A stretch of 64,000 bases of DNA from Escherichia phage Es2. The stretch is taken from sequence record OR515477.1. One strand, 5' to 3'. Shown piece by piece: positions 27,500 through 39,437 of the stretch. How positions within the stretch are numbered: the first letter of the stretch is position 1; each line of letters begins with the position of its first letter. The notes under the pieces were generated by a model. That model worked only from the letters and a program-made list of their open reading frames with translations, did no database searches and was not told the origin of the DNA. The position numbers were made by a program, and so were the translations under genes.

Positions 27500-27536
27500 C
27501 CAATTTTATTAACTGTAGCTAAAACAAAGGAAATAT

Positions 27537-28484
27537 ATGTTTAATACTAAAAATATGAAAGAACTGACTTCTGAGCAAAAAGTAATTCGCACTATTAAAC
27601 GTTGGGGTATTGGTGCTGTAGTTGGTTTAGCAGGTTTAGTTCTAGCTCTTAACTCCTATACCGTTGTTCAAGACGGTACTGTTAAGACCCAGACTTTCTT
27701 GGGTAAAGTTGATCCTAACCCTGTATTGCCGGGCTTTCATATTGTAAATCCTTTTGCTTCTTTTGATACTTTTAGTACTAAAGATATTGCTCTGAAATTA
27801 GATAAACTTCAGGTTCCTAGTCAGGATAAGTTTAAATCCACTGTTGACCTGACTGTTATGTTGCAGTTTGATGGTTCTAAAGCACCGATTAACCGTATTA
27901 ATGCAGGTACTCAGGATCAAGCATTAGACAAATATGTAACTGAAAAATTACTGTCTACTATTCGTGAGTTTGGTAAGTCTGTACCTAAAGCACAAGATTT
28001 ATTTGATGCTAAAATTCAGGCTCAATTGCAAACTGCAATTCAACAGGAAGTTGAAGAGTATGCACGCCCATATGGTTACACAGTTAAGCAGGTGTTTCTT
28101 CAGGATATTACTTTGCCACCGGTAATCATGGAACAGGTACAGAATACCAAAGTTCGTGAAGAACAGGTTAATGCTGCTAAAGCTGAATTAGCTCGTGTTG
28201 AACAGGAAGCACAGCAAAAAGTTAAACAAGCAGAAGCAGATCGTGAAGCTCGCAACAACCAAGCTATTGCTAACGAACGTGACGCAGATGCTAAGCTGTA
28301 TGCAGCTAAGAAAGAAGCTGAAGCTAACGCCGCATTGCAACGTACCATTACTCCTGAGATGATTCACTGGAAGCAACTGGAAGTTGAAATGATTCGTGCT
28401 CAGAAGTATCAGGGTGGTGTACCGCAGACTGTGGTTGGCACTGGCTATGATGGCCAAATGATTATGGATATGCGTAATAAATAA
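27537..28484 (+). CDS. SPFH/band-7 (prohibitin/HflKC-like) membrane protein
   Basis: N-terminal TM (WGIGAVVGLAGLVLAL), SPFH-like core, Ala/Gln/Glu-rich coiled-coil C-terminus. Confidence 0.6.
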   Translation: MFNTKNMKELTSEQKVIRTIKRWGIGAVVGLAGLVLALNSYTVVQDGTVKTQTFLGKVDPNPVLPGFHIVNPFASFDTFSTKDIALKLDKLQVPSQDKFKSTVDLTVMLQFDGSKAPINRINAGTQDQALDKYVTEKLLSTIREFGKSVPKAQDLFDAKIQAQLQTAIQQEVEEYARPYGYTVKQVFLQDITLPPVIMEQVQNTKVREEQVNAAKAELARVEQEAQQKVKQAEADREARNNQAIANERDADAKLYAAKKEAEANAALQRTITPEMIHWKQLEVEMIRAQKYQGGVPQTVVGTGYDGQMIMDMRNK

Positions 28485-28509
28485 TACCCGCATGTAACAT
28501 CTGAAGTAA

Positions 28510-28545
28510 GCCCTGCGTTTCCTGGAGAGCGCAGGGCTTTTCTAT
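28510..28545 (+). terminator. rho-independent terminator
   Basis: GCCCTGCG...CGCAGGGC hairpin followed by TTTTC. Confidence 0.6.
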
Positions 28546-28580
28546 ATAATGTATTTGTAAATCTAACTAGGAGATCAAAT

Positions 28581-29099
28581 ATGAATGTTGATGAGCTAAC
28601 ACAGCACCTCTTATCTAGAGGATTTGATACAGATAAATATCATTGCTGGTTAAGTCCAGCAGGGTGGCTAACAGTCCCGTTGTATGATTTCTCTGGGATG
28701 TTGAGGGGCTATCAAACTTATAATCCTTCTGCTCCAAAAGGTCATGGTAAGTGTCCCTTTGAAGCTAAATATTTTACCTATTCTACTACCCAGTGTGTAT
28801 GGGGATTAGAAACTCTCAATGGAGATGAAAAAGTAGTATTGGTCGCTGAATCTGTATTTAAGGCAGTTGCGTTACATAATGCTGGTTATCCAGCCCTAGC
28901 AATGTTGGGTTCTTCTCCAGGAAAAGCGTTATTAAAGCAACTGAAATTATTACCTTTTAAATTGGTAGCTGTCGGGGATAACGATCCTGCGGGTGAAAAA
29001 TTTGCTAGAAAATTAAACGGCTTTGTTTCTCCTGTAGATGTGGATGAGATGTCTACCGAAAACTTGAAAAATTTTCTTGCTATGAAGCTAAATTTCTAA
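28581..29099 (+). CDS. hypothetical protein
   Basis: 172 aa ORF with AGGAG RBS. Confidence 0.5.
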   Translation: MNVDELTQHLLSRGFDTDKYHCWLSPAGWLTVPLYDFSGMLRGYQTYNPSAPKGHGKCPFEAKYFTYSTTQCVWGLETLNGDEKVVLVAESVFKAVALHNAGYPALAMLGSSPGKALLKQLKLLPFKLVAVGDNDPAGEKFARKLNGFVSPVDVDEMSTENLKNFLAMKLNF

Positions 29100-29120
29100 T
29101 ATAATATATCTTATAAATTC

Positions 29121-29206
29121 GGAAGAATAGCATAATGGTATTGCAGCAGATTGCTAATCTGTCGGTTTGAAATATAGCCTTGTGGGTTCGATTCCCACTT
29201 CTTCCG
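29121..29206 (+). tRNA. tRNA-Ser (anticodon GCT)
   Basis: Acceptor GGAAGAA/TTCTTCC, anticodon loop TTGCTAA, long variable arm, T-arm GTGGG-TTCGATT-CCCAC, CCA encoded. Confidence 0.75.
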
Positions 29207-29215
29207 CCAGATTTT

Positions 29216-29290
29216 GGTTCTCAAGCTCATATGGTATGAGCACCCGGCTCATAACCGGAAGGTACGTAGGTTCGAATCCTCGGGGAGCCA
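29216..29290 (+). tRNA. tRNA-Met/Ile2 (anticodon CAT)
   Basis: Acceptor GGTTCTC/GGGAGCC, anticodon loop CTCATAA, TTCGAAT T-loop (T-stem imperfect), CCA encoded. Confidence 0.6.
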
Positions 29291-29312
29291 CCAACTTATT
29301 TAGGAGCTACAA

Positions 29313-29501
29313 GTGGAACTATACATAGTTTATGTTGTGTTTATTCAAGATAGAGAATATCCGGATGAGTATAAACAAGGGTATAGGTTAGCCAGGGCTA
29401 CCTCTGAAGCACAAGCTATGGATAAAGTAGCTGAGTATATGATTATGGTAGAAAATGTACACTATATCGACTCACTTGAAGCCTCAAAAGTAATTGAATA
29501 A
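29313..29501 (+). CDS. hypothetical protein
   Basis: 62 aa ORF. Confidence 0.4.
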   Translation: MELYIVYVVFIQDREYPDEYKQGYRLARATSEAQAMDKVAEYMIMVENVHYIDSLEASKVIE

Positions 29502-29510
29502 GGAGACTGT

Positions 29511-29696
29511 ATGTCCAAGTTTCAAGAACTCAAGCAAGAGCTAGAAGAATGTGCCTGCCCTGAGTGTAGGGGAATTGGTGAAAGTTCTGATGCAGAAGCA
29601 GGAGATACTTTTTGCAATATCTGGGTTTGCCCAAATTGCAATGGTACAGGTATTAATCCTAACTGTGGTATTTCTCTAGATATTGAAAGGGGATAA
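29511..29696 (+). CDS. small zinc-ribbon protein
   Basis: CACPECRG...CPNCNG paired CxxC motifs, AAGGAG RBS. Confidence 0.5.
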   Translation: MSKFQELKQELEECACPECRGIGESSDAEAGDTFCNIWVCPNCNGTGINPNCGISLDIERG

Positions 29697-29797
29697 TATC
29701 TGTGAAACTAAAAGATTATTATATTGGTTGGTTTGTGGGACTAGTAGTAGGATTTTCACTAGGCTATAATATGTATCAACTAATAAACTGATTACAC

Positions 29798-29871
29798 GGG
29801 GGTGTAATCGAATTGGCATAGGTACTGGACTTAAAATTCAGGTTTTGTGGGTTCGAATCCCACCACCCCTA
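29798..29871 (+). tRNA. tRNA with anticodon TAA (Leu-decoding; class I architecture)
   Basis: Acceptor GGGGGTG/CACCCCT, anticodon loop CTTAAAA, short variable arm, T-arm GTGGG-TTCGAAT-CCCAC, CCA encoded. Confidence 0.55.
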
Positions 29872-30049
29872 CCAAATTAAGGAAATAAGATGTATAGACA
29901 TCCACCTCCGCCAACACGTCGTTCTAGAGAAGTTATCCTCATGGAATTGACTAAAAACTTCAAGGCAACTCTTGAAGATAGAGATTTAGGCACGGATGAA
30001 GACATTGATTTTATTTGTAGACTATTAAAGATGAAATTGGAGAAACAAC

Positions 30050-30256
30050 ATGGCTAATCCTGAAATTACCGCACAACGTTTCATGCTTAAAGGCATGATT
30101 GCTGAAGCAGGTATGACTCAAGAGGTTGCAGACTTTCATAAGCAATTTCTTGATATTATAACTCTAGCTAAGGAGACTGGAGAAAAAGAGCACGCAGCAG
30201 CAATTATGGCTATATCTCTTATTAGTCTAGACTTGGCTGAAGAATCTGGAGTTTAG
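30050..30256 (+). CDS. hypothetical protein
   Basis: 68 aa ORF. Confidence 0.45.
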   Translation: MANPEITAQRFMLKGMIAEAGMTQEVADFHKQFLDIITLAKETGEKEHAAAIMAISLISLDLAEESGV

Positions 30257-30285
30257 CTCCTCCAAACAGAATTTTTAAAAATGTA

Positions 30286-30315
30286 CTTGCCTTTTGCTTT
30301 AAATTTCTGATATAA
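30286..30315 (+). promoter_or_regulatory. early-type sigma70 promoter
   Basis: TTGCCT, 18 bp, TATAAT. Confidence 0.5.
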
Positions 30316-30346
30316 TAGTTATATAAATTAATGAAGGAGTTAACAA

Positions 30347-30622
30347 ATGCAAAATCGTGTTATAGCAACTGGTATTGAAAGTGCAATCTGTAAATCCTGG
30401 GAAGGCTGGGAAGGTGAGATTGAATGGCTTTATTTCTACGATGTAGAACTTCTGCCGGAAGTTAAAGCTAAATGTGTTGAAGCTGGCATGGCTCCAGATG
30501 CAAAAGCTGATATTGATATTTCAATGTCTGAACTTAAAGGCCGTGTAATTACTGTTAGTGATGAGGGCGAAGAAGTTTTCGAACTTCCGTTCTCCTTAAC
30601 TGTCACTCCTAAGTTCGACTAA
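30347..30622 (+). CDS. hypothetical acidic protein
   Basis: 91 aa ORF, AAGGAG RBS after promoter 30286-30315. Confidence 0.5.
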   Translation: MQNRVIATGIESAICKSWEGWEGEIEWLYFYDVELLPEVKAKCVEAGMAPDAKADIDISMSELKGRVITVSDEGEEVFELPFSLTVTPKFD

Positions 30623-30658
30623 CTAATACAGCACTGAGCAAGTTCTTTAAAATTTGAC

Positions 30659-30687
30659 TTGCTCAGTGCCTTAAAACTTGGTATAAT
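30659..30687 (+). promoter_or_regulatory. early-type sigma70 promoter overlapping a 12 bp-stem hairpin
   Basis: TTGCTC, 17 bp, TGGTATAAT; -35 lies inside the inverted repeat GCACTGAGCAAG...CTTGCTCAGTGC (30631-30669). Confidence 0.55.
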
Positions 30688-30705
30688 AGTTATCTAATTT
30701 GGAAA

Positions 30706-30812
30706 CATATTTGAATGAGAAGTAACTAAGCGAGTTGCTTTGAGGGGTAAAGTCAGGATAGCCTGAAATATTCCACCTTGAGTTTAACCGACTTACTTTT
30801 CATTCAAATATG
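30706..30812 (+). ncRNA. long hairpin element (20 bp stem enclosing 67 nt) at start of tRNA-Tyr transcript
   Basis: CATATTTGAATGAGAAGTAA (30706-30725) pairs with TTACTTTTCATTCAAATATG (30793-30812); lies between promoter -10 (30682-30687) and tRNA-Tyr. Confidence 0.4.
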
Positions 30813-30890
30813 GGGGGGTTGGCTCAGAGGCGACGGCGCCTGGCTGTAGACCGGGTATACCACGCGGAGGTTCGAGTCCTCCATCCCCCA
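30813..30890 (+). tRNA. tRNA-Tyr (anticodon GTA)
   Basis: Acceptor GGGGGGT/ATCCCCC, anticodon loop CTGTAGA, extended variable region, T-arm GGAGG-TTCGAGT-CCTCC, CCA encoded. Confidence 0.6.
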
Positions 30891-30911
30891 CCAAATTACT
30901 AAGGAAATAAT

Positions 30912-31457
30912 ATGCACAATAAGTTAATAAATGAACTTCAAAAAAGACAAATAATAACAAAAACTAAGGAGTTTGATATAACTCCGGATTTAATAGTTGA
31001 ATGTTCGAAAGTTTACTTAGAGTTAAGTAACACAAAGGCTAAGAAAGTCTCTTTAGGAGATCTTAGATATAATGTTAAACTATTGTGCCTATCCTTAATT
31101 AAATTTAAGCAAGAAAATAAACTTCTCATAAAAGAAGGTTTCATATATTTTATAGCAAATAAGGCGTGGCCCAATTATTTTAAGATTGGTATGTCAGCTA
31201 ACCCAAAGAAACGTCTGGCTAACTATCAAACATATAGTCCTTTTAGGGATTATACAATGCTACACTGGTCTTTCTGGTTTGACAGAAAGGAAGGTGAAAA
31301 ATTTGTACATAGTCTCTACCAAGACAGAGATCATGAATGGGTTAGGCTGCCACAAAGAAAACTAAATAAAATATTTGAGCAAATAAATAAACTTTCTGGC
31401 CTAGAACACTTGGTACAGAAAGTTAATAGAGAAATAGTTAATGCACCTATCGTCTAA
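30912..31457 (+). CDS. GIY-YIG-like (T5orf172-type) domain protein
   Basis: FIYFIANKAWPNYFKIGMSANPKKRLANYQTYSP resembles the GIY-YIG/T5orf172 fold; 3' end overlaps tRNA-Glu. Confidence 0.5.
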   Translation: MHNKLINELQKRQIITKTKEFDITPDLIVECSKVYLELSNTKAKKVSLGDLRYNVKLLCLSLIKFKQENKLLIKEGFIYFIANKAWPNYFKIGMSANPKKRLANYQTYSPFRDYTMLHWSFWFDRKEGEKFVHSLYQDRDHEWVRLPQRKLNKIFEQINKLSGLEHLVQKVNREIVNAPIV

Positions 31458-31514
31458 TGGTTAGGACATCAGGATTTCAATCTGAGAATCGGAGTTCAAT
31501 TCTCCGTGGGTGTA
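31443..31514 (+). tRNA. tRNA-Glu (anticodon TTC)
   Basis: Acceptor GCACCTA/TGGGTGT, anticodon loop ATTTCAA, T-arm CGGAG-TTCAATT-CTCCG, CCA encoded. Confidence 0.7.
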
Positions 31515-31523
31515 CCAAATTCT

Positions 31524-31599
31524 GCATTCCTAGAGTGTTACTGGACAGCATGTCGGTCTCCAAAACCGTACGGTCTAGGTTCGAGTCCTAGTAGGTTTG
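31524..31599 (+). tRNA. tRNA-like, possible tRNA-Trp (anticodon CCA)
   Basis: Good T-arm CTAGG-TTCGAGT-CCTAG and anticodon loop CTCCAAA, but acceptor stem pairing is poor; ends approximate. Confidence 0.35.
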
Positions 31600-31608
31600 C
31601 CAAAATTT

Positions 31609-31680
31609 GCACCTTTAGCTGAGATGGATTAGCGCTTGCCTGAAGAGCTTGAGAGGTTCGTTCGATTCGAACAGGGTGCA
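31609..31680 (+). tRNA. tRNA, possible tRNA-Phe (anticodon GAA)
   Basis: Acceptor GCACCTT/AGGGTGC, T-arm GTTCG-TTCGATT-CGAAC, CCA encoded; anticodon stem weak (loop CTGAAGA). Confidence 0.5.
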
Positions 31681-31685
31681 CCAAT

Positions 31686-31973
31686 TTGAGGGAGCTGCTG
31701 ATGCATCCTGAAAACTTCTTTATTTACTGCGCTGATAAGTCGCTGAAACGTAGAATTAACAAAGTCTATCATTATAGTGCTAGTCAACAGCCTTATGTAT
31801 ACGCTTTTGACGGTGATCACATTCCACTAGAACAATTATCTTGTGATTACATGATATTGAAGAACTTTGATGAGACGAAGATCTCGAGCGTTCATAATCG
31901 ACAGAATCCATTGACGTGGAAATATAAGAAGAAAAAGAAAGGCATCAAATTCTTAAAAAATGTAGTTGCTTAG
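31686..31973 (+). CDS. hypothetical protein
   Basis: 95 aa ORF; a promoter overlaps its 3' end. Confidence 0.45.
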   Translation: MRELLMHPENFFIYCADKSLKRRINKVYHYSASQQPYVYAFDGDHIPLEQLSCDYMILKNFDETKISSVHNRQNPLTWKYKKKKKGIKFLKNVVA

Positions 31974-31994
31974 TTTCCAAAAGTTCTGTATAAT
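31966..31994 (+). promoter_or_regulatory. early-type sigma70 promoter
   Basis: TTGCTT, 17 bp, TGTATAAT. Confidence 0.6.
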
Positions 31995-32005
31995 AATTAC
32001 ATAAA

Positions 32006-32248
32006 TTGAACTGGAGAAGCAACATGACAGAACAAGAATTGAATGAACGTAAGCTGGTAATGCTTCGCTTACTAAATATTTTCTCTGGTATGGACGGTGG
32101 AATTGACTTTGTTCATCTACGTTCTTTCGTAGAAGAAGCTGAAGGCGAATCTATCACTAAAATCCTTAAACACATGGGATTACTTTTAGATGCTGCTAAT
32201 GTGGCTACTGAATATAAAATAGAAGATCTACCGGAGCGTGTTAAATGA
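32006..32248 (+). CDS. hypothetical protein
   Basis: 80 aa ORF after promoter 31966-31994. Confidence 0.5.
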   Translation: MNWRSNMTEQELNERKLVMLRLLNIFSGMDGGIDFVHLRSFVEEAEGESITKILKHMGLLLDAANVATEYKIEDLPERVK

Positions 32249-32436
32249 AACGATTAGTTAGATTTAAGTGTTGTGGTTCCGAGCACATTTTCACACATCT
32301 TCGTGAATTTAAAATGTGTGATTGTGGTAAATCAGGCTATGACTCAGGAGATGGGTTCTACACCCGTACTCTAGGGAACTTCAATGATCTAGAATTTGAA
32401 GATCTCGAAAAACAAGATAAACCGACCGTTGGCTGA
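32245..32436 (+). CDS. small Cys-rich protein
   Basis: 63 aa, CCGSEH...CDCG motif; 3' end overlaps tRNA-Cys. Confidence 0.45.
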   Translation: MKRLVRFKCCGSEHIFTHLREFKMCDCGKSGYDSGDGFYTRTLGNFNDLEFEDLEKQDKPTVG

Positions 32437-32495
32437 ATGGCTTAGGCGAAGGATTGCAAATCCTTTTTATGTGAGTTCAAATCTCATGCGGTCGT
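32423..32495 (+). tRNA. tRNA-Cys (anticodon GCA)
   Basis: Acceptor CGACCGT/GCGGTCG, anticodon stem-loop AAGGA-TTGCAAA-TCCTT, T-arm GTGAG-TTCAAAT-CTCAT, CCA encoded. Confidence 0.7.
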
Positions 32496-32501
32496 CCAAT
32501 T

Positions 32502-32640
32502 TGCTGAAAGAATTGTTAAATCAATTCAGGCACGCGTAGGAACACTGTCTCCGTAATTGAAAGATGAGGCACGGTTTGGAGAGGTATGCCGCTACACGCT
32601 ACGGTGCTAACTCCGTCTAGGTGAAAATCCTAGTCAGCAA
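32502..32640 (+). ncRNA. long tRNA-like element (~139 nt)
   Basis: 7 bp acceptor-like pairing TTGCTGA/TCAGCAA, D-arm-like hairpin GAATTG-TTAAAT-CAATTC, T-arm-like CTAGG-TGAAAAT-CCTAG; no ORF. Confidence 0.35.
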
Positions 32641-32650
32641 TATAAATTTA

Positions 32651-32730
32651 GGGTCGTTAGCCAAGCGGTTTGGCGGTGGACTGTTAATCCATGTCGAAAG
32701 ACAACGTAGGTTCGAATCCTACACGGCCCG
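32651..32730 (+). tRNA. tRNA-Asn (anticodon GTT)
   Basis: Acceptor GGGTCGT/ACGGCCC, anticodon loop CTGTTAA, extended variable region, T-arm GTAGG-TTCGAAT-CCTAC, CCA encoded. Confidence 0.65.
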
Positions 32731-32835
32731 CCAAATTCTGTGTAGAGTTAAGTAAACCGGTAGCCAACCAGCTATCATTGCTGATATCGAATTCAGCCAC
32801 AGATACCATTTTCATTAATAACTGAGGAAACAAGC

Positions 32836-33021
32836 ATGTCCAAGAATGTAATTGCACAGCTAGAAGTTCATCGTGATAACACAGCTAATAACATTAAGTG
32901 CCGACAAAAAGATATTGAAGCTCGAAAGGCTGATCTTTTAATGAGTATTCGAGAGCTTAATGTACGGAAAGAGTTTCTTAAAGAACTTAATGCAGCTATT
33001 GAAAAACTCAAAGTTGAGTAA
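32836..33021 (+). CDS. hypothetical protein
   Basis: 61 aa ORF, coiled-coil-like. Confidence 0.4.
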   Translation: MSKNVIAQLEVHRDNTANNIKCRQKDIEARKADLLMSIRELNVRKEFLKELNAAIEKLKVE

Positions 33022-33030
33022 ATAAATTAT

Positions 33031-33104
33031 GCGACCGGGGCTGGCTTGGTAATGGTACTCCCCTGTCACGGGAGGGAATGTGGGTTCAAATCCCATCGGT
33101 CGCG
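33031..33104 (+). tRNA. tRNA-Asp (anticodon GTC)
   Basis: Acceptor GCGACCG/CGGTCGC, anticodon stem-loop CTCCC-CTGTCAC-GGGAG, T-arm GTGGG-TTCAAAT-CCCAT, CCA encoded. Confidence 0.75.
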
Positions 33105-33132
33105 CCAAATTAATTTAGTATGAGAATATACT

Positions 33133-33480
33133 ATGCGTAATGCTAAAGAAGAGTTGTTACTTGCCTTAAAAAATACTAATTCTGAAGTTAAATGTATTAA
33201 AATAGAATTCGGGTATTATGGGGATAAAAAAGTTTGGGTATTACCTTTAGGTTATACAGAAAAAGATATTGAGGATTTTCTTAATAATCTAGACTTTAAG
33301 TACGATTCTGGGTATGGTGGGCAATTACTTTATGGTAATGTATGGTTTGCCGACGGAACTTGGCTAGAACGTGGGGAATACGATGGTGCTGAGTGGTGGG
33401 AGTACAAAGCTACCCCGGAAATTCCAGAGGAATGCCGAACAATTAATGGTGAAGTAGATAATACTTTACTATTAAACTAA
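33133..33480 (+). CDS. hypothetical protein
   Basis: 115 aa ORF. Confidence 0.5.
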   Translation: MRNAKEELLLALKNTNSEVKCIKIEFGYYGDKKVWVLPLGYTEKDIEDFLNNLDFKYDSGYGGQLLYGNVWFADGTWLERGEYDGAEWWEYKATPEIPEECRTINGEVDNTLLLN

Positions 33481-33602
33481 AAGAATTTCAGTGCAGAACA
33501 CGGAGCTAGCAATTCGGAAGTGCTGACTCATGATAAGCTGCCTATGTACTTGCTAAGCGGTCGTGTCCAAGACTCGGACTCTTGCACTGAAAACAATCAA
33601 AC

Positions 33603-33723
33603 ATTCTAGCGTGGTTGATGGGGAAACCAGCTTGGCTAGGGCAGAAGCTCGTTCGATTCGAGTGAAAGAATGGTTCTCGTAAGTCCGCACAAGTGATAGC
33701 AGGTTCGAGTCCTGTCTAGAATG
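33603..33723 (+). ncRNA. long tRNA-like element (~121 nt)
   Basis: Perfect 7 bp acceptor pairing ATTCTAG/CTAGAAT, T-arm GCAGG-TTCGAGT-CCTGT, internal second T-arm-like GCTCG-TTCGATT-CGAGT; too long for a canonical tRNA. Confidence 0.4.
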
Positions 33724-33731
33724 ACACTATA

Positions 33732-33859
33732 AAGTTTACTTATTATGTAGGTTCCGATAGATCGGCGGGTCTATTCTGGCATTTAAGAGAAGTCTCGCAA
33801 ACTTCTTTGTCAGCCGTGGGGTTGGTAGCCTCCAGGTGGCCTACACAATAAGTAAATTT
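33732..33859 (+). ncRNA. long hairpin element (20 bp stem enclosing ~88 nt)
   Basis: AAGTTTACTTATTATGTAGG (33732-33751) pairs with CCTACACAATAAGTAAATTT (33840-33859); sub-hairpins inside; no ORF. Confidence 0.4.
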
Positions 33860-33872
33860 ATTAAAAATTCAT

Positions 33873-33901
33873 TTGCTATTTTTCTTAATTATCTGTATAA
33901 T
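33873..33901 (+). promoter_or_regulatory. early-type sigma70 promoter
   Basis: AAAAATTCATTTGCTA, 17 bp, TGTATAAT. Confidence 0.6.
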
Positions 33902-33933
33902 ATATTTTATAAAGTGAAGAGAAGGAAAGCAAA

Positions 33934-34092
33934 ATGAAACACAAGATAGCCCAAGTTTTTATGGCATTATGGTGTATGCCAATAGCTATAACAGCATTTA
34001 ATCTAGATACTTTTACTATAGAAGAAAAATGTATCGGATTAGTTAGCGGCTTTAGTATGCTTGGCTTATCTTTGTTGTGGTTGAAGAAATAA
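33934..34092 (+). CDS. small hydrophobic protein
   Basis: 52 aa ORF MKHKIAQVFMALWCMPIAITAF... after promoter 33873-33901; below track cutoff. Confidence 0.4.
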   Translation: MKHKIAQVFMALWCMPIAITAFNLDTFTIEEKCIGLVSGFSMLGLSLLWLKK

Positions 34093-34096
34093 TATT

Positions 34097-34171
34097 CTCC
34101 GTGTAGCTCAGTTTGGCCAGAGCGTTTCGTTTGGGGCGATAGGGTCGGGGGTTCAAATCCTCCCACGGAGA
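34097..34171 (+). tRNA. tRNA-Pro (anticodon TGG)
   Basis: Acceptor CTCCGTG/CACGGAG, D-arm GCTC..GAGC, anticodon loop TTTGGGG, T-arm GGGGG-TTCAAAT-CCTCC, CCA encoded. Confidence 0.7.
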
Positions 34172-34180
34172 CCAAACAAT

Positions 34181-34255
34181 TGCGGGTTAGATCTCTGGTA
34201 GAGATCGCTAGTCTCATAAGCTAGAAAGAGGTAGGTTCGATTCCTGCACCCGCTT
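34181..34255 (+). tRNA. tRNA-Met/Ile2 (anticodon CAT)
   Basis: Acceptor TGCGGGT/ACCCGCT (1-72 mismatch), anticodon stem-loop CTAGT-CTCATAA-GCTAG, T-arm GTAGG-TTCGATT-CCTGC, CCA encoded. Confidence 0.65.
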
Positions 34256-34278
34256 CCATTTTAATAGAGGATTTCGAA

Positions 34279-34446
34279 ATGAAAGTATTTCGATTAGTAG
34301 TAAGTGACAAACGGTTAGGTAAGAATACATCAAAATCCCTACTCGCTCATTACGGTAAAAATTGGGATGAAGTAATGGCAGAGTTTAGTACTAATCACCC
34401 TTACTTGAAAGTTCACTCTATTAAAGAAGTATATAATGGTTACTAA
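34279..34446 (+). CDS. hypothetical small protein
   Basis: 55 aa ORF with GAGGA RBS between tRNAs; below track cutoff. Confidence 0.4.
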   Translation: MKVFRLVVSDKRLGKNTSKSLLAHYGKNWDEVMAEFSTNHPYLKVHSIKEVYNGY

Positions 34447-34447
34447 T

Positions 34448-34523
34448 AGATCGCTAGCTCAATAGGTTTAGTAGCATCCGACTTTTAATCGGAAGGTTCT
34501 GGGTTCGAGTCCCAGGCGATCTA
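34448..34523 (+). tRNA. tRNA-Lys (anticodon TTT)
   Basis: Acceptor AGATCGC/GCGATCT, anticodon stem-loop TCCGA-CTTTTAA-TCGGA, T-arm CTGGG-TTCGAGT-CCCAG, CCA encoded. Confidence 0.75.
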
Positions 34524-34530
34524 CCAAATT

Positions 34531-34601
34531 GCTCGGTTAGTTTAATGGGAGAACCCCGTCTTTACACGGCGGTTGAGATAGTTCAATTCTATCACCGAGT
34601 A
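34531..34601 (+). tRNA. tRNA-Val (anticodon TAC)
   Basis: Acceptor GCTCGGT/ACCGAGT, anticodon loop TTTACAC, T-arm GATAG-TTCAATT-CTATC, CCA encoded. Confidence 0.7.
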
Positions 34602-34623
34602 CCAATTAACTCAAAATAAGGAA

Positions 34624-34983
34624 TTGCAAATGCAATTATCAAGCAAGATTCAAGGTTATTTCGGTCATGTAACAATGGAGTTCGCTATCTCTAAAGGTTG
34701 GGACTTCGAACAAGATTTAGCTGAGTTCTACAAAGATATTGATCTGAACGTACCGTACATGGGACTTTCTACTGGTCAGGAGATCACAGAAGCCGATGTA
34801 TTCAAGGCAAGTCAAGGTGAGGTAACACCTAGTTTTGCCGAGTTCTGGTTAGGCATTACGTTAAAAGAAGATGCACCAGATAGTGGTGTACTAATGTCTA
34901 GTATGCACTCTGGAAGTTCCGATTACCTTTTCATTAGCGATGTTAAGGAAATACAAGAAGTCTGCAAAAATGTACTTGCTTGA
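34624..34983 (+). CDS. hypothetical protein
   Basis: 119 aa ORF with AAGGA RBS. Confidence 0.5.
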   Translation: MQMQLSSKIQGYFGHVTMEFAISKGWDFEQDLAEFYKDIDLNVPYMGLSTGQEITEADVFKASQGEVTPSFAEFWLGITLKEDAPDSGVLMSSMHSGSSDYLFISDVKEIQEVCKNVLA

Positions 34984-35004
34984 TGCTTAATTTCTTGTTA
35001 TAAT
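34976..35004 (+). promoter_or_regulatory. early-type sigma70 promoter
   Basis: TTGCTT, 17 bp, TATAAT; followed by hairpin GATGAGGA-GAAA-TCCTCATC. Confidence 0.55.
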
Positions 35005-35242
35005 ATTTATATAAATTGATGAGGAGAAATCCTCATCATAGTTCACTAAGGTATTAGCTCGACCTAGGACTGGCTGCCAAAAAGCACGATCCCTACGATT
35101 CGGGAAAAGTTCTAGATTGGTCCACTAGATTCAGCGGCAACTGAATAGTGTATTGGGTTTGCGAGATGACGTAGTTCCTTCCGCTCTAAGCGAAGGTGCT
35201 GTAGTTACGCCGAGCTAATAGCCTTAGTAAACTAAAGAATTT

Positions 35243-35318
35243 GGGGAATGGGTCTGCATGGAGTGGACACCTCGCTTGCACCGAGGACATCAGAACGGTT
35301 CGATTCCGTTATTCTCCA
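35243..35318 (+). tRNA. tRNA-Ala (anticodon TGC)
   Basis: Acceptor GGGGAAT/ATTCTCC, anticodon stem-loop CCTCG-CTTGCAC-CGAGG, T-arm AACGG-TTCGATT-CCGTT, CCA encoded. Confidence 0.7.
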
Positions 35319-35326
35319 CCAAATAC

Positions 35327-35400
35327 GCGTGATTGATGGAATGGGCATACATACCGTCCTTAGAAGTCGGGTTTTGAGGGTTCGAATCCCTTGTCACGCA
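35327..35400 (+). tRNA. tRNA with anticodon TAG (Leu-decoding; class I architecture)
   Basis: Acceptor GCGTGAT/GTCACGC, anticodon loop CTTAGAA, short variable arm, T-arm GAGGG-TTCGAAT-CCCTT, CCA encoded. Confidence 0.55.
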
Positions 35401-35515
35401 CCAAATTTGATGGTCAGAGTAAATTAAACCTACTATCTCGGTTGAGCTGTTTTAATGGGTTCGAATCCCAGCGGGGCGTAACTGCCTGGTGTGATAGAGG
35501 CATCATCTTATTATT

Positions 35516-35603
35516 GGAAGAGCAAATCGAATTGGCGACGAAAACCGCTTGGAAAGTGGCTGACTGGTAAAACGGCTTGAGAGTTCAAATCTCTCCTCTT
35601 CCG
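35516..35603 (+). tRNA. tRNA-Ser (anticodon GGA)
   Basis: Acceptor GGAAGAG/CTCTTCC, anticodon loop TTGGAAA, 18 nt variable arm, T-arm GAGAG-TTCAAAT-CTCTC, CCA encoded. Confidence 0.7.
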
Positions 35604-35618
35604 CCAAACAATTTATAT

Positions 35619-35710
35619 GGTAGGTCAATCCAATGGCTGGCGCTGGACTCCGACTTGAAATCGGTTGATCGTAGTGATACGGTGTAAGGGTTCGATCCCC
35701 TTACCTACCT
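35619..35710 (+). tRNA. tRNA-Ser (anticodon TGA)
   Basis: Acceptor GGTAGGT/ACCTACC, anticodon loop CTTGAAA, 20 nt variable arm, T-arm AAGGG-TTCGATC-CCCTT, CCA encoded. Confidence 0.7.
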
Positions 35711-35716
35711 CCAAAT

Positions 35717-35850
35717 CTTGAAGTATGCCGGAATCGGTAGACGGGGCTGCCTAAAAGGTTTATAGGGAACATCCACTCCCTGCAACATACCTCATAAAGC
35801 GGCTGAGATAAATGGTCTATCTCGTGAAGGTTCAAGTCCTTCTGCTTCTT
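35717..35850 (+). ncRNA. long tRNA-like element (~134 nt)
   Basis: Acceptor-like pairing TGAAGTA/TGCTTCT (6 of 7), T-arm GAAGG-TTCAAGT-CCTTC, internal D-arm-like hairpins; no CCA, no ORF. Confidence 0.35.
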
Positions 35851-35964
35851 GATACATCTATGGCTCAAAGTGTAACGGTGCTATTTGATGCTCTTGGTAA
35901 GACTTCCCCGACATGCGTTCGGGAGTAAGCTGCTAAGACTAGAGTAGAAGAGTTTCTGAGAGCC

Positions 35965-36084
35965 GCCACAATTGAAAATTCGTACTCGTCTTGAGCTGCG
36001 CGCAATAGGAGATAACTTGATTAGTATTCTAGAACATGCTAATTGAGGAAGGTTTCGCTAACCCTGCGAGTTTTCAATTGTGGC
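35965..36084 (+). ncRNA. long hairpin element (18 bp stem enclosing ~85 nt) abutting tRNA-His
   Basis: GCCACAATTGAAAATTCG (35965-35982) pairs with CGAGTTTTCAATTGTGGC (36067-36084); the 3' arm overlaps the tRNA-His acceptor. Confidence 0.4.
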
Positions 36085-36153
36085 TATATCATAATTGGTT
36101 AATGATCCTGATTGTGAATCAGGCCTATGTGGATTCGAATTCCACTAGCCACC
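36080..36153 (+). tRNA. tRNA-His (anticodon GTG)
   Basis: Acceptor GTGGCTA/TAGCCAC, D-arm TCAT..ATGA, anticodon stem-loop CCTGA-TTGTGAA-TCAGG, T-arm GTGGA-TTCGAAT-TCCAC, CCA encoded. Confidence 0.7.
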
Positions 36154-36180
36154 CCAAATTAACTTAAATAGGAAATAAAT

Positions 36181-36387
36181 ATGGCTGATTTCTGCAAACA
36201 ATGCTCCATTGATATGTGGGGTAAAGATACTGGTGATCTTTCTGGTTTGATTACAGAAGCTGAAGTTAAAGAAGGCTACGGTGCTGCTGTGATCTGCGAA
36301 GGATGCGGAGTTATTCGAGTAGATCATGAAGGCAAACGTTTAGAAGATCCAAAAAGTATTAAGAAGAAGGTTAGCCAAGTAGGTTAA
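36181..36387 (+). CDS. small zinc-ribbon protein
   Basis: CKQCS...CEGCG motifs, 68 aa; 3' end overlaps tRNA-Gln. Confidence 0.5.
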   Translation: MADFCKQCSIDMWGKDTGDLSGLITEAEVKEGYGAAVICEGCGVIRVDHEGKRLEDPKSIKKKVSQVG

Positions 36388-36437
36388 GGCTGGGGTCTCT
36401 GAAATCCTGATCAGTGGTTCGAATCCACTACCTTCTG
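36365..36437 (+). tRNA. tRNA-Gln (anticodon CTG)
   Basis: Acceptor AGAAGGT/ACCTTCT, anticodon loop CTCTGAA, T-arm AGTGG-TTCGAAT-CCACT, CCA encoded. Confidence 0.6.
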
Positions 36438-36446
36438 CCAAACAAT

Positions 36447-36521
36447 TGGGGATTAGCTTAGCTTGGCCTAAAGCTTCGGCCTTTGAAGTCGAGATCATTG
36501 GTTCAAATCCAATATCCCCTG
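36447..36521 (+). tRNA. tRNA-Gln (anticodon TTG)
   Basis: Acceptor TGGGGAT/ATCCCCT, D-arm GCTT..AAGC, anticodon stem-loop TCGGC-CTTTGAA-GTCGA, T-arm ATTGG-TTCAAAT-CCAAT, CCA encoded. Confidence 0.65.
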
Positions 36522-36534
36522 CCAGCTAAATTAA

Positions 36535-36607
36535 TGCGTGATTAGTTCAGTGGCTAGAATAACTGGCTTCCAACCAGTAGACACGAGTTCGACTCTCGTA
36601 TCCCGCA
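36535..36607 (+). tRNA. tRNA-Gly (anticodon TCC)
   Basis: Acceptor GCGTGAT/ATCCCGC, anticodon stem-loop ACTGG-CTTCCAA-CCAGT, T-arm ACGAG-TTCGACT-CTCGT, CCA encoded. Confidence 0.7.
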
Positions 36608-36624
36608 CCAAATAAGGAAACGTT

Positions 36625-36846
36625 ATGCACGTTTTTGAGTTTCGTAATAAAAATACTGATAAGCGAGTTATCATTATTGGAGAAACATACCGAGCATATG
36701 AACAAACTGACGGCTCTGTTATCTTGAATGATGAGAAAGGAGGTTTTAGCTTTTATCCAGAAGAACCTTATGAAGAGTTTCGTACTAAGTTTCTTTTACC
36801 AGACTGGCTAGCAGTAGCCGAGCAACGAGAATCCGAAGATGGCTGA
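36625..36846 (+). CDS. hypothetical protein
   Basis: 73 aa ORF, AAGGAAAC RBS. Confidence 0.5.
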   Translation: MHVFEFRNKNTDKRVIIIGETYRAYEQTDGSVILNDEKGGFSFYPEEPYEEFRTKFLLPDWLAVAEQRESEDG

Positions 36847-37001
36847 TAACCTAAAATTAAGGGTCGACAAACAAAAGAAATACATTGAGGTTGAATTAGG
36901 CGAAGAACGATTAAAGCTAACTTTCGAGTTTCTTCAGCAGTTGGCTATGACAGTTATGACTGATAAGTCTCCTGTTATTGAAAAAGAAATCCCGTTGAAA
37001 T
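36840..37001 (+). CDS. hypothetical small protein
   Basis: About 53 aa ORF (MADNLKLRVDKQKKYIEV...) overlapping the previous stop; coordinates +/-2. Confidence 0.35.
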
Positions 37002-37012
37002 AACGGGATCAT

Positions 37013-37085
37013 CGCTCCTAAAGCATTGCTGGCGATGCAGTTGCCTTGTAAGCATCTGAACCGGGTTCGATTCCTGGTGGGAGCA
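37013..37085 (+). tRNA. tRNA-Thr (anticodon TGT)
   Basis: Acceptor GCTCCTA/TGGGAGC, D-arm GCAT..ATGC, anticodon loop CTTGTAA, T-arm CCGGG-TTCGATT-CCTGG, CCA encoded. Confidence 0.65.
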
Positions 37086-37103
37086 CCAAATTTAAAAATT
37101 CAT

Positions 37104-37132
37104 TTGCTTTCTCTCTTATTTATTGTTATAAT
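37104..37132 (+). promoter_or_regulatory. early-type sigma70 promoter
   Basis: AAAAATTCATTTGCTT, 17 bp, TATAAT. Confidence 0.6.
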
Positions 37133-37162
37133 ATTCATATAAATTAATGAGAGGGAAGCCAA

Positions 37163-37456
37163 ATGAAACGTTATCTTTCTGTTGTGTTCCAAACTGGTGG
37201 TCAACGCTATACTTACGAATTTCCTGGCTCTTGGAAGATCAAAGAAGGTGATCAAGTAGTAGTGTTAACACCGCGTGAGGGTTTTAAGGTAGTAACGGTT
37301 AAGCAAGTATTTCCAAAAGAGCGTGAACCAGCTAAAGGCATTCGCTATAAGATGATTCATGGTGTAGTTCGTCAAGTACCACGAGCGGAAGTCGAAATCA
37401 AAGTAGATAAAGATGGTAAACTTAAATATACCTCTTGCTTAGACGAGTTGCTATAA
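37163..37456 (+). CDS. hypothetical protein
   Basis: 97 aa ORF after promoter 37104-37132. Confidence 0.5.
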   Translation: MKRYLSVVFQTGGQRYTYEFPGSWKIKEGDQVVVLTPREGFKVVTVKQVFPKEREPAKGIRYKMIHGVVRQVPRAEVEIKVDKDGKLKYTSCLDELL

Positions 37457-37662
37457 TGAGGATTACTTTTACAGAAAAGATCATGAGTAATGGTGTTATG
37501 ATCATTACCGCATGGGATGGTAATCAGTGGTGTAGTGTTTCAGGTATTAAGCCTGAAGAACAAACACTAGATAATATCTCAAAGATTAAGCGAAGAATGA
37601 CAGAACGTGCACGACTTCCAGGTGCACCTAGAAATGGCAAACGTTCTGCTGCAAAATGTTAA
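37456..37662 (+). CDS. hypothetical protein
   Basis: 68 aa ORF starting at overlapping TAATG. Confidence 0.45.
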   Translation: MRITFTEKIMSNGVMIITAWDGNQWCSVSGIKPEEQTLDNISKIKRRMTERARLPGAPRNGKRSAAKC

Positions 37663-37663
37663 T

Positions 37664-37737
37664 GCTTCGGTAGCTTAGCGATCTAAAGCACTCGGCTGAT
37701 AACCGAGAGATCGGGGGTTTAAATCCCTCCCGGAGTA
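37664..37737 (+). tRNA. tRNA-Ile (anticodon GAT)
   Basis: Acceptor GCTTCGG/CCGGAGT, D-arm GCTT..AAGC, anticodon stem-loop CTCGG-CTGATAA-CCGAG, unusual T-loop TTTAAAT, CCA encoded. Confidence 0.7.
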
Positions 37738-37836
37738 CCAAATTTAGGAATTAAGACTATGCGTCCAGGAAAGTTTAAAAAAGCTAATTGGTCTAAAGAG
37801 TATAAAGAATACTTACTTAGTCTAGTAAAACATAAT

Positions 37837-37909
37837 AGTTAGTTGGCAGAGTGGTTATGCACCTCCTTCATACGGAGCGACTACAGTGGTTCAAATCCAC
37901 TACTAACTA
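37837..37909 (+). tRNA. tRNA-Met/Ile2 (anticodon CAT)
   Basis: Acceptor AGTTAGT/ACTAACT, anticodon loop TTCATAC, T-arm AGTGG-TTCAAAT-CCACT, CCA encoded. Confidence 0.65.
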
Positions 37910-37949
37910 CCATTAAAAGAGCTAGAGATAGCTAACTTTAGGAGCAGCT

Positions 37950-38144: not shown

Positions 38145-38186
38145 AGAATAAATAGCTGAGCCAAATTCTAACATCGGGGAGATCTA

Positions 38187-38951: not shown

Positions 38952-38962
38952 TTAATAACAAA

Positions 38963-39420: not shown

Positions 39421-39437
39421 ATTCTGAAATAATTCAT

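What the first reader, a model, noticed from the sequence alone, without database searches (positions are those of the whole stretch)
29216..37909. Three CAU-anticodon tRNAs and two class I tRNAs with Leu anticodons
Hand folding gives three tRNAs with anticodon CAT (29216, 34181, 37837), plausibly initiator, elongator Met and lysidine-dependent Ile2. Two tRNAs read UAA and UAG anticodons (29798, 35327) yet have short variable arms, whereas bacterial tRNA-Leu is class II with a long arm. They may be charged by a non-Leu synthetase or may be mis-folded by me.
Basis: seen in the sequence. Interest (0 to 1): 0.45.

Follow-up and report, generated by a model that had tools for sequence, protein, structure and literature searches.

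The report
Phage leucine tRNAs lacking the long arm
This T5-like phage carries two genuine leucine tRNAs that lack the long extra arm of bacterial leucine tRNAs yet keep the other features E. coli's leucine-charging enzyme reads, and the same short form is common in phage tRNA clusters but almost undescribed.

Summary
The window is a T5-like coliphage (Tequintavirus). It has a 25-gene tRNA cluster on the + strand.

Three tRNAs carry a CAU anticodon. They match the Ile2, initiator fMet and elongator Met tRNAs named in the curated T5 record, so this part is already known.

The two Leu-anticodon tRNAs, UAA at 29798-29874 and UAG at 35327-35403, are 77 nt with a 5-nt variable loop GUUUU. They are class I, and this is not a folding error.

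The suggestion that a non-Leu synthetase charges them is not supported. Both keep the E. coli LeuRS identity set apart from the long arm: A73, A14, A15:U48, G18G19, A20a, and a 3-bp D stem with G13·A22. UUA and CUA make up 47% of phage Leu codons, and they exchange mainly with other Leu codons between relatives.

Related class I Leu tRNAs occur in hundreds of phage records, in at least 120 viral contigs and in bacterial tRNA arrays. They show strong covariation. Ser and Tyr tRNAs in the same contigs keep their long arms.

T5 itself has a class II Leu(UAG) at the same locus.

Charging is inferred, not shown. The literature reports that E. coli LeuRS failed on a Streptomyces class I tRNA-Leu, which makes the question testable.

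The parts
29798..29874 (+). Class I (short variable loop) tRNA-Leu, anticodon UAA, which reads UUA and UUG. It has 7/3(+G13·A22)/5/5-bp stems, D loop AAUUGGCAU, variable loop GUUUU, A73 and an encoded CCA.
   Evidence: Called by ARAGORN and Rfam at 57.4 bits. It is 100% identical in about 290 T5-like phage records.
35327..35403 (+). Class I tRNA-Leu, anticodon UAG, which reads CUN. D loop AAUGGGCAU, G13·A22, variable loop GUUUU, A37, A73 and an encoded CCA. It lies 5 nt downstream of tRNA-Ala(UGC).
   Evidence: Called by ARAGORN and Rfam at 47.7 bits; sequence. It is at least 95% identical in 161 phage records. T5 carries a class II 85-nt Leu(UAG) at the same position.
29216..29293 (+). tRNA with anticodon CAU, equivalent to T5 tRNA-Ile2, which is presumed to depend on lysidine and read AUA. 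It has G1:C72, U12:A23, C29:G41, A37A38, A73, a C27xA43 mismatch and a one-base bulge in the T stem. It lies 6 nt after tRNA-Ser(GCU).
   Evidence: Rfam gives 40.3 bits, with the alignment. The T5 record names it tRNAI2(CAU). A compensatory 30:40 change separates it from T5. It is conserved in several hundred phage records.
34181..34258 (+). tRNA with anticodon CAU, equivalent to the T5 initiator tRNA-fMet. It has a U1xU72 mismatch, G2:C71, C3:G70, G4:C69 and A11:U24. It departs from the standard initiator in having U73, only one of the three G:C pairs in the anticodon stem, and an extended D helix.
   Evidence: Called by ARAGORN and Rfam at 43.6 bits. It is identical to T5 tRNAfM. It is at least 95% identical in 364 records.
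37837..37912 (+). tRNA with anticodon CAU, equivalent to T5 elongator tRNA-Met. It has A1:U72, U4:A69, A5:U68, anticodon loop UUCAUAC and A73.
   Evidence: Called by ARAGORN and Rfam at 51.5 bits. It is identical to T5 tRNAM(CAU).
26854..37912 (+). The whole phage tRNA cluster: 25 detected tRNAs interspersed with small ORFs, early promoters and stable-RNA-like segments. It is the setting for all five tRNAs above.
   Evidence: It is syntenic with T5 coordinates 28038-40847 and with phage IrisVonRoten.

Best explanation
The two tRNAs are functional leucine isoacceptors of a T5-like phage that have lost the long variable arm.

Proposed sequence of events:
1. They are transcribed with the rest of the early tRNA cluster.
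2. They are matured by host enzymes. The CCA end is encoded.
3. They are charged with leucine by the host LeuRS. In E. coli this enzyme reads A73 and the elbow or hinge architecture (A14, A15:U48, G18G19, A20a). It does not read the anticodon or the long arm.
4. They decode UUA/UUG and CUN codons. The AT-rich phage uses these codons far more than the host does.

They most likely descend from class II phage tRNA-Leu by loss of the arm, because they keep the class II Leu-type D arm: a 3-bp stem and N13·A22.

Shown here: cloverleaf, class I status, conservation, covariation, identity elements, and the match to codon demand.

Inferred: leucylation by host LeuRS, and use on the ribosome.

The three CAU tRNAs are the T5 Ile2, initiator-like and elongator Met species.
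For: Structure:
- ARAGORN and Rfam both call the tRNAs.
- RNAalifold gives a cloverleaf with no extra arm, with compensatory changes at 20 of 20 pairs.
- Across 138 class I Leu tRNAs less than 95% identical to one another, 98.4% of stem cells are standard pairs. A control with partners shifted by one position gives 44.6%. Each stem position shows 3-6 pair types.

Identity elements:
- Both window tRNAs have A73, A14, A15:U48, G18G19, A20a and G13·A22. Their D loops are AAUUGGCAU and AAUGGGCAU, against AAUUGGUAG and AAUCGGUAG in E. coli leuW and leuZ.
- Among 65 class I Leu tRNAs with non-UAG anticodons, which the search pattern did not select, A73 is present in 65/65, A15:U48 in 63/65 and A14 in 63/65.
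- Other class I isotypes in the same contigs have A15:U48 in 34% overall.
- The 13-22 pair is standard in 6% of class I Leu, 3% of class II Leu and 79% of other class I tRNAs.

Specificity to Leu:
- In the same contigs Ser (121/123) and Tyr (53/54) keep their long arms, while 157 of 200 Leu tRNAs are class I.
- This fits a LeuRS that can do without the long arm. From my own knowledge, SerRS and TyrRS use the arm.

Selection:
- Leu(UAA) is 100% identical in about 290 phage records, although the surrounding 9 kb is 92-98% identical.

Codon demand:
- UUA is 27% and CUA 20% of Leu codons in window ORFs.
- Against T5 and IrisVonRoten, 29 of 38 changed UUA codons and 15 of 27 changed CUA codons became other Leu codons. 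The rest mostly became Val, Phe or Ile.

Literature:
- The E. coli LeuRS identity set, and the finding that the long arm is dispensable, are from the review PMC9976931.
Against: - No charging data exist for these tRNAs.
- Fan et al. 2019 (PMC6614811) report that E. coli LeuRS did not charge the class I tRNA-Leu(CAA) of Streptomyces coelicolor at all.
- The same paper describes E. coli LeuRS as charging only type II tRNA-Leu, and says its leucine-specific domain favours a large variable loop.
- Some GenBank records label the homologues tRNA-OTHER or pseudo.
- T5 itself works with a class II Leu(UAG) and no Leu(UAA), so the class I genes are not essential to this phage lineage.
- The E. coli codon-use figures I compared against come from memory, not from a tool.
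Confidence: 0.8

Rival explanations
1. The tRNAs are expressed but not aminoacylated. They would act as decoys or sponges for host tRNA-targeting nucleases or other tRNA-binding factors, or they are decaying pseudogenes.
For: - E. coli LeuRS failed on a natural class I tRNA-Leu from Streptomyces (PMC6614811).
- Some annotators flag homologues as tRNA-OTHER or pseudo.
- tRNA arrays have been proposed as anti-defence elements (PMC12803027).
- T5 lacks both class I genes.
Against: - A decoy or a pseudogene would have no reason to keep A73, the encoded CCA, the full Leu hinge set and perfect acceptor-stem covariation across hundreds of lineages.
- The two anticodons match the phage's most over-used Leu codons.
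- Near-complete sequence invariance within T5-like phages argues against decay.
Confidence: 0.12
2. A non-Leu synthetase charges them, so UUA/UUG or CUN codons are partly recoded during infection.
For: Only the class I shape. Precedents exist elsewhere, such as the yeast mitochondrial tRNA-Thr(UAG) mentioned in PMC7609411.
Against: - No identity element of another synthetase is visible. There is no G3:U70, and A35 excludes the Gln, Lys and Val anticodon sets. U34 and C20 do not fit Phe (identity rules from PMC9976931 and my own knowledge).
- The Leu-specific D arm and A15:U48 are conserved.
- UUA and CUA exchange mainly with other Leu codons between relatives, including relatives that lack these genes.
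- Host Leu tRNAs read the same codons, so recoding would be ambiguous and harmful at 47% of Leu codons.
Confidence: 0.03
3. The short variable loops are an artefact of hand folding or of wrong gene boundaries.
For: Single-sequence minimum-energy folds of the two Leu tRNAs do not give a cloverleaf. That is common for tRNA sequences folded alone.
Against: - ARAGORN, Rfam and RNAalifold agree.
- The genes are 74 nt plus CCA, and neighbouring tRNAs or ORFs lie within 5-20 nt, leaving no room for a long arm.
Confidence: 0.01

Closest known systems
Bacterial class II tRNA-Leu, for example E. coli leuZ (UAA) and leuW (UAG), and T5 tRNA-Leu1(UAG)
   Same: - The anticodons are the same.
- A73, A14, A15:U48, G18G19 and A20a are shared.
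- Both have a 3-bp D stem with G13·A22 and a 9-nt D loop of the form AAUNGGNAN.
- The UAA species shares the A36A37A38 loop.
- T5's class II Leu(UAG) sits at the same locus, after tRNA-Ala.
   Different: - The phage tRNAs have no long variable arm: 5 nt against 13-15 nt.
- The UAG species has A37 where host leuW has G37.
- Core identity to the E. coli genes is only 57-58%, and to T5 Leu1 58%. The class I gene is therefore a different allele, not an in-place deletion of the T5 gene.
Type I tRNA-Leu(CAA) of Streptomyces coelicolor (Fan et al. 2019, PMC6614811)
   Same: It is a bacterial-world tRNA-Leu with a short variable loop. It coexists in one compartment with class II tRNA-Leu and a single LeuRS.
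   Different: - It is chromosomal, has a different anticodon and comes from a different phylum.
- Its LeuRS has a specialised leucine-specific domain.
- E. coli LeuRS did not charge it.
- The phage tRNAs carry the E. coli-type identity set, and enterobacterial LeuRS would have to charge them.
Animal mitochondrial tRNA-Leu(UUR) and tRNA-Leu(CUN)
   Same: They are class I tRNA-Leu with UAA and UAG anticodons. Identity rests on A73 and A14 (PMC9976931).
   Different: They are organellar, AT-rich and structurally relaxed, and a dedicated mitochondrial LeuRS charges them. The phage tRNAs have a fully canonical elbow and T loop.
Short-variable-loop tRNA-Leu(UAG) in mycobacterial tRNA gene clusters (Behra et al. 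2019, PMC6582537)
   Same: It is a class I Leu(UAG) in a mobile tRNA array that contains an HNH endonuclease gene, while the chromosomal isoacceptor is class II. In my scan, 77 of 85 bacterial loci with this type of tRNA were dense tRNA arrays.
   Different: The paper mentions it in one sentence with no analysis. The host is an actinobacterium. No link was drawn to phages of enterobacteria or to LeuRS identity.

Membership tests
Canonical tRNA (Rfam RF00005) | Cloverleaf with a 7-bp acceptor stem, D arm, 5-bp anticodon stem with a 7-nt loop, 5-bp T stem with a GTTCRANYC-type loop, and U8, G18G19 and U33 | tested here: met
   Rfam scores are 40-57 bits against a cutoff of 29 for all five tRNAs. 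ARAGORN calls four of the five. Covariation is shown.
E. coli-type tRNA-Leu (LeuRS identity set) | Discriminator A73 | tested here: met
   Both window tRNAs have A73, as do 137 of 138 family members.
E. coli-type tRNA-Leu (LeuRS identity set) | A14, the A15:U48 Levitt pair, G18G19 and A20a in the D loop | tested here: met
   The window D loops are AAUUGGCAU and AAUGGGCAU, with U48. In the family, A14 is found in 131/138, A15 in 134/138 and U48 in 136/138. In the unselected subset, A15:U48 is found in 63/65.
E. coli-type tRNA-Leu (LeuRS identity set) | Class II architecture: a long variable arm of more than 10 nt | tested here: not met
   The variable loop is 5 nt (GUUUU) in both tRNAs. The review PMC9976931 states that this arm is not an identity element for E. 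coli LeuRS.
E. coli-type tRNA-Leu (LeuRS identity set) | Actually leucylated by host LeuRS | not testable with these tools
   This needs an aminoacylation assay. The literature is divided. Minimal E. coli tRNA-Leu without the arm is active, but E. coli LeuRS failed on the S. coelicolor class I tRNA-Leu.
Type I (short-loop) tRNA-Leu | A Leu anticodon together with a 4-5-nt variable loop | tested here: met
Bacterial initiator tRNA-fMet (window 34181) | No Watson-Crick pair at 1:72 | tested here: met
   The pair is U1xU72, where E. coli has C1xA72.
Bacterial initiator tRNA-fMet (window 34181) | A11:U24, G2:C71 and C3:G70 | tested here: met
   The D stem is GAUC/GAUC. Acceptor pairs 2-6 are identical to those of E. 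coli metY.
Bacterial initiator tRNA-fMet (window 34181) | Three consecutive G:C pairs at 29:41, 30:40 and 31:39 | tested here: not met
   The stem is CUAGU/GCUAG, so only G30:C40 is kept. The discriminator is also U73 rather than A73. The T5 record still labels this tRNA the initiator.
tRNA-Ile2 (lysidine, CAU) (window 29216) | IleRS body determinants U12:A23, C29:G41, A37, A38 and A73. The determinant list is from my own knowledge. | tested here: met
   All are present in 29216. The 12:23 and 29:41 pairs and A38 are not met in 37837, which shares only A37 and A73.
tRNA-Ile2 (lysidine, CAU) (window 29216) | TilS acceptor-stem determinants C4:G69 and C5:G68. The determinant list is from my own knowledge. 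| tested here: inconclusive
   The tRNA has U4:A69 and C5:G68, so only one of the two is present. Lysidine formation itself cannot be tested here.

The most novel reading that the evidence does not exclude
Loss of the long arm may be an adaptive hallmark of mobile tRNA arrays in phages and plasmids.

On this reading, arm-less Leu tRNAs remain good substrates for ordinary bacterial LeuRS, including the E. coli enzyme that the field currently regards as specific for type II. At the same time they would escape host factors that recognise class II tRNAs through the arm, such as defence nucleases. Known examples of this kind come from eukaryotic Schlafen enzymes, which I cite from my own knowledge.

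This would make class I tRNA-Leu an anti-defence or orthogonality device rather than a curiosity.
Probability: 0.2. Interest if true: 0.8.

Novelty: new member of a known kind. Interest (0 to 1): 0.55.

Why it matters
Textbooks and the LeuRS literature treat bacterial tRNA-Leu as class II. Fan et al. 2019 present Streptomyces coelicolor as the only prokaryotic case in which one LeuRS serves both types, and they describe E. coli LeuRS as handling type II only.

In this analysis, arm-less Leu tRNAs with an intact E. coli-type identity set are the commoner form in T5-like coliphages. For the UAG isoacceptor, 161 phage records carry the class I allele and about 55 carry the class II allele. The class I form is also widespread in other phage families and in bacterial tRNA arrays.

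Three things would follow if they are charged:
- Enterobacterial LeuRS accepts natural class I substrates, which can be tested directly with existing reagents.
- T5-like phages provide natural class I and class II alleles at one locus, ready for comparing fitness, charging and sensitivity to host defences.
- Annotation pipelines that label these genes pseudo or OTHER would be under-calling functional tRNAs.

Tried and rejected
- Single-sequence minimum-energy folding did not recover the cloverleaf for the Leu tRNAs or for Met 37837, so I did not use it as evidence either way. Comparative folding did recover it.
- ARAGORN alone would have missed the CAU tRNA at 29216. Rfam was needed.
- I used all ten literature searches (one search was rejected for a term that was too short). 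None found a study of phage class I tRNA-Leu. The only relevant items were the Streptomyces paper and a one-sentence remark on a mycobacterial tRNA cluster.
- Larkin et al. 2002 (PMC115294) is not held, so I cite its result only through the review.
- Older T5 and BF23 tRNA papers cannot be searched here, so an earlier description cannot be ruled out.
- I considered in-place deletion of the arm from the T5 Leu1 gene and rejected it. Core identity between the two alleles is only 58%.
- I considered recoding and rejected it on the codon-substitution test.
- The viral-contig scan forced U48 and a 5-nt loop for the UAG species. I therefore based the identity statistics on the 65 class I Leu tRNAs with other anticodons.
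- I did not use protein homology searches, structure prediction or covariance-model building. The question did not need them.


Full report
**What the window is.** The 9-kb stretch 29000-38000 matches 600 phage records. The best are T5-like phages of Escherichia and Salmonella, namely IME178 at 97.6% and AKFV33 at 96.3%. These belong to Demerecviridae, genus Tequintavirus. The window holds the T5-type tRNA cluster. ARAGORN finds 23 tRNAs and Rfam finds 24, all on the + strand between 26854 and 37912. The union is 25.

**Checking the observation.**
- Leu(UAA) at 29798-29874 and Leu(UAG) at 35327-35403 are each 77 nt with an encoded CCA.
- Laid out by hand, Leu(UAA) reads GGGGGUG UA AUCG AAUUGGCAU AGGU A CUGGA CUUAAAA UUCAG GUUUU GUGGG UUCGAAU CCCAC CACCCCU A CCA.
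- Leu(UAG) reads GCGUGAU UG AUGG AAUGGGCAU ACAU A CCGUC CUUAGAA GUCGG GUUUU GAGGG UUCGAAU CCCUU GUCACGC A CCA.
- The variable region is 5 nt in both. E. coli leuZ and leuW are 87 and 85 nt with arms of 13-15 nt.
- The CAU tRNAs at 34181 and 37837 are called by both programs.
- The CAU tRNA at 29216 is called only by Rfam, at 40.3 bits, because its T stem has a one-base bulge.

**The three CAU tRNAs.** The curated T5 record (NC_005859) names the gene next to Ser(GCU) tRNAI2(CAU), the gene after Pro tRNAfM(CAU), and the last gene of the cluster tRNAM(CAU). The T5 fM and M sequences are identical to window 34181 and 37837. T5 I2 differs from window 29216 by a compensatory G30:C40 to A30:U40 change.

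Comparison with E. coli ileX, metT and metY agrees with these names:
- 29216 has U12:A23, C29:G41, A37A38 and A73. These are the IleRS body determinants as I know them. It also has a non-Watson-Crick 27:43 pair, as Ile2 does.
- 34181 has a 1x72 mismatch (UxU), acceptor pairs 2:71 to 6:67 identical to those of E. coli initiator tRNA, and the initiator-specific A11:U24. It departs from the standard initiator in having U73, only one of the three G:C pairs in the anticodon stem, and an extended D helix.
- 37837 has U4:A69 and A5:U68, like E. coli elongator Met.

AUA is used at 10.7 per 1000 codons, which fits a need for Ile2. All three tRNAs are conserved in several hundred phage records. This part of the finding is correct and already known.

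**The class I Leu tRNAs: are they leucine tRNAs?** For E. coli LeuRS, the review PMC9976931 lists A73, A14, the A15:U48 pair, G18G19 and A20a as determinants. [quoted passage not shown]

Both window tRNAs carry every listed element. They also carry the Leu-type D arm: a 3-bp stem, G13·A22 and a 9-nt loop of the form AAUNGGCAU. E. coli has AAUUGGUAG and AAUCGGUAG. They show no determinant of another synthetase.

**Relatives.** BLAST of the two genes finds them throughout T5-like phages.
- The UAA gene is at least 99% identical in 292 records.
- The UAG gene is at least 95% identical in 161 records.
- More distant class I Leu(UAG) homologues (75-87% identity) occur in other phage groups: Vequintavirinae (PVP-SE1 and a Mydovirus), Ounavirinae (Mushroom, Arno162), Vibrio and Aeromonas Demerecviridae (JSF12, AhSzw-1), and Aeromonas phage LAh_8.

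A pattern scan of IMG/VR for a class I Leu(UAG) reached its 120-locus limit. ARAGORN on those loci gave 1924 tRNAs and 200 unique Leu tRNAs. Of these, 157 are class I, with anticodons UAG, UAA, CAA, GAG, CAG and AAG, and 40 are class II.

The pattern forced U48 in the UAG species, so I based the identity statistics on the 65 class I Leu tRNAs with other anticodons:
- A73 is present in 65/65, A15:U48 in 63/65 and A14 in 63/65.
- Other class I isotypes in the same contigs have A15:U48 in 34%.
- The 13:22 position is a standard pair in 6% of class I Leu and 3% of class II Leu, against 79% of other class I tRNAs.

The class I Leu tRNAs therefore have a class II Leu body without the arm.

Covariation is very strong. 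Across 138 sequences less than 95% identical to one another, 98.4% of stem cells are standard pairs, against 44.6% when partners are shifted by one position. Each position shows 3-6 pair types. RNAalifold on 30 sequences independently returns the four-arm cloverleaf with compensatory changes at all 20 pairs.

**An internal control.** In the same contigs Ser (121/123) and Tyr (53/54) keep their long arms. From my own knowledge, SerRS and bacterial TyrRS use the arm. Bacterial LeuRS does not, according to the review. Arm loss confined to Leu is what one expects if these tRNAs must remain chargeable.

**Codon evidence.**
- Window ORFs use UUA for 27% and CUA for 20% of Leu codons. E. coli is dominated by CUG, a figure I give from memory.
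- In codon alignments with T5 and IrisVonRoten, 29 of 38 changed UUA codons and 15 of 27 changed CUA codons became other Leu codons. The rest mostly became Val, Phe or Ile.
- T5 lacks both class I genes, so these codons mean leucine whether or not the class I tRNAs are present. Recoding is not supported.

**Locus polymorphism.** T5 proper has an 85-nt class II Leu(UAG) at the same place, 5 nt after Ala(UGC), followed by the homing endonuclease gene hegC. It has hegA where the window has Leu(UAA).
- The T5-type class II allele is found in about 55 T5-like records, against 161 for the class I allele.
- Some phages, such as SSP1 and fp01, combine the class II UAG gene with the class I UAA gene.
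- The two UAG alleles share only 58% core identity. This is allele replacement, not deletion in place.
- Across the viral set, class I and class II Leu tRNAs are interleaved. Ten of 39 class II tRNAs have a class I nearest neighbour, at up to 83% core identity.
- Pseudomonas phage 201phi2-1 carries a class II Leu(UAA) with the same D arm, anticodon loop and T stem as the window's class I Leu(UAA), at 75% core identity.

**Outside phages.** The same pattern found only 85 loci in one genome for each of 185,579 species, and none in Enterobacteriaceae. Of these, 77 lie in dense tRNA arrays with a median of 14 tRNAs per 8 kb or less. They occur in cyanobacterial plasmids and chromosomes, Planctomycetes, Erysipelotrichaceae and various metagenome-assembled genomes. 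Class I tRNA-Leu is thus a feature of mobile tRNA arrays.

**What is known.**
- Class I tRNA-Leu is established for mitochondria.
- It is also established for S. coelicolor tRNA-Leu(CAA) (Fan et al. 2019, PMC6614811). That paper states that almost all bacterial tRNA-Leu are type II and that ScoLeuRS is the only prokaryotic LeuRS known to charge both types. It also reports that E. coli LeuRS did not charge the Streptomyces class I tRNA.
- Behra et al. 2019 (PMC6582537) mention in one sentence a short-loop tRNA-Leu(UAG) in a mycobacterial tRNA cluster.
- I found nothing on phage class I tRNA-Leu. The older T5 and BF23 literature cannot be searched here.
- GenBank records mostly annotate these genes simply as tRNA-Leu, and sometimes as tRNA-OTHER or pseudo.

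**Verdict.** The CAU interpretation is right and already known. The idea of non-Leu charging is not supported. The two Leu tRNAs belong to a large, conserved and barely described class of arm-less leucine tRNAs carried by phages and tRNA arrays.

The main open point is biochemical: whether enterobacterial LeuRS charges them, and how well. The identity elements, selection pattern and codon demand say it does. The one published test of E. coli LeuRS on a different natural class I tRNA-Leu was negative. This tension gives the finding moderate interest.

Noticed in passing
window 32651-32733 (+): tRNA-Asn(GUU) is 83 nt. It has a 12-nt variable arm that forms a GUC-GAAA-GAC hairpin, and it has G73. 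The T5 Asn tRNA is an ordinary 78-nt class I tRNA. In this phage, then, Leu has lost a long arm and Asn has gained one. ARAGORN also reports long variable regions for some Asn, Ile, Lys and Thr tRNAs in the viral contigs.
   Followed up: partly
window 30813-30893 (+): tRNA-Tyr(GUA) is only 81 nt, with a variable region of about 10 nt. The T5 Tyr tRNA is 88 nt. The closest relative, IME178, annotates this gene as tRNA-Pseudo-GTA.
   Followed up: no
window 30912-31457 (+): This ORF encodes a T5orf172/MUG113 domain protein (Pfam E-values about 2e-9), which I take to be GIY-YIG-like. It sits between tRNA-Tyr and tRNA-Glu. In T5 those two tRNAs are 6 nt apart. T5 instead has the HNH genes hegA where the window has Leu(UAA), and hegC next to its class II Leu(UAG). 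Endonuclease gene content therefore tracks the differences in tRNA alleles.
   Followed up: partly
window about 35518-35608 and 35619-35712 (+): Two class II Ser-like tRNAs, with anticodons GGA and UGA, lie at the positions of T5 tRNA-Ser2 and tRNA-Ser1. Neither ARAGORN nor Rfam at its gathering score calls them. The second matches only the tRNA-Sec model, at 37.6 bits against a cutoff of 47. They may be divergent or decaying.
   Followed up: partly
window 26854-26925 (+): A weak tRNA-like element is found by Rfam at 35.5 bits but not by ARAGORN. It lies upstream of tRNA-Arg, in the region that the T5 record annotates as stable RNA X.
   Followed up: no
window 35359-35365 (anticodon loop of Leu(UAG)): Position 37 is A, as in 135 of 138 class I Leu relatives and in T5's class II Leu(UAG). 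Host leuW has G37. From my own knowledge, these phage CUN readers would therefore not receive the TrmD m1G37 modification.
   Followed up: no
window 34181-34258 (+): The initiator-like tRNA is atypical. It has U1xU72, U73, a D helix that can extend to 7 bp around a 3-nt loop with no A14, and only one of the three G:C pairs in the anticodon stem. Even so, it is at least 95% identical in 364 phage records.
   Followed up: partly
window about 33868-33912 and 37092-37136 (+), with similar blocks near 30280, 30650, 31960 and 34970: Repeated blocks of the form AAAAATTCATTTGCT...TATAAT(A) precede the small ORFs. They correspond to the early promoters annotated in the T5 record.
   Followed up: no
window 38187-38555 (+): A small ORF carries the C-terminal glycine-radical motif (Pfam Gly_radical, E-value 4e-18). 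IrisVonRoten annotates the equivalent gene as a putative formate acetyltransferase. From my own knowledge, it resembles a spare glycyl-radical domain of the YfiD/GrcA type.
   Followed up: no
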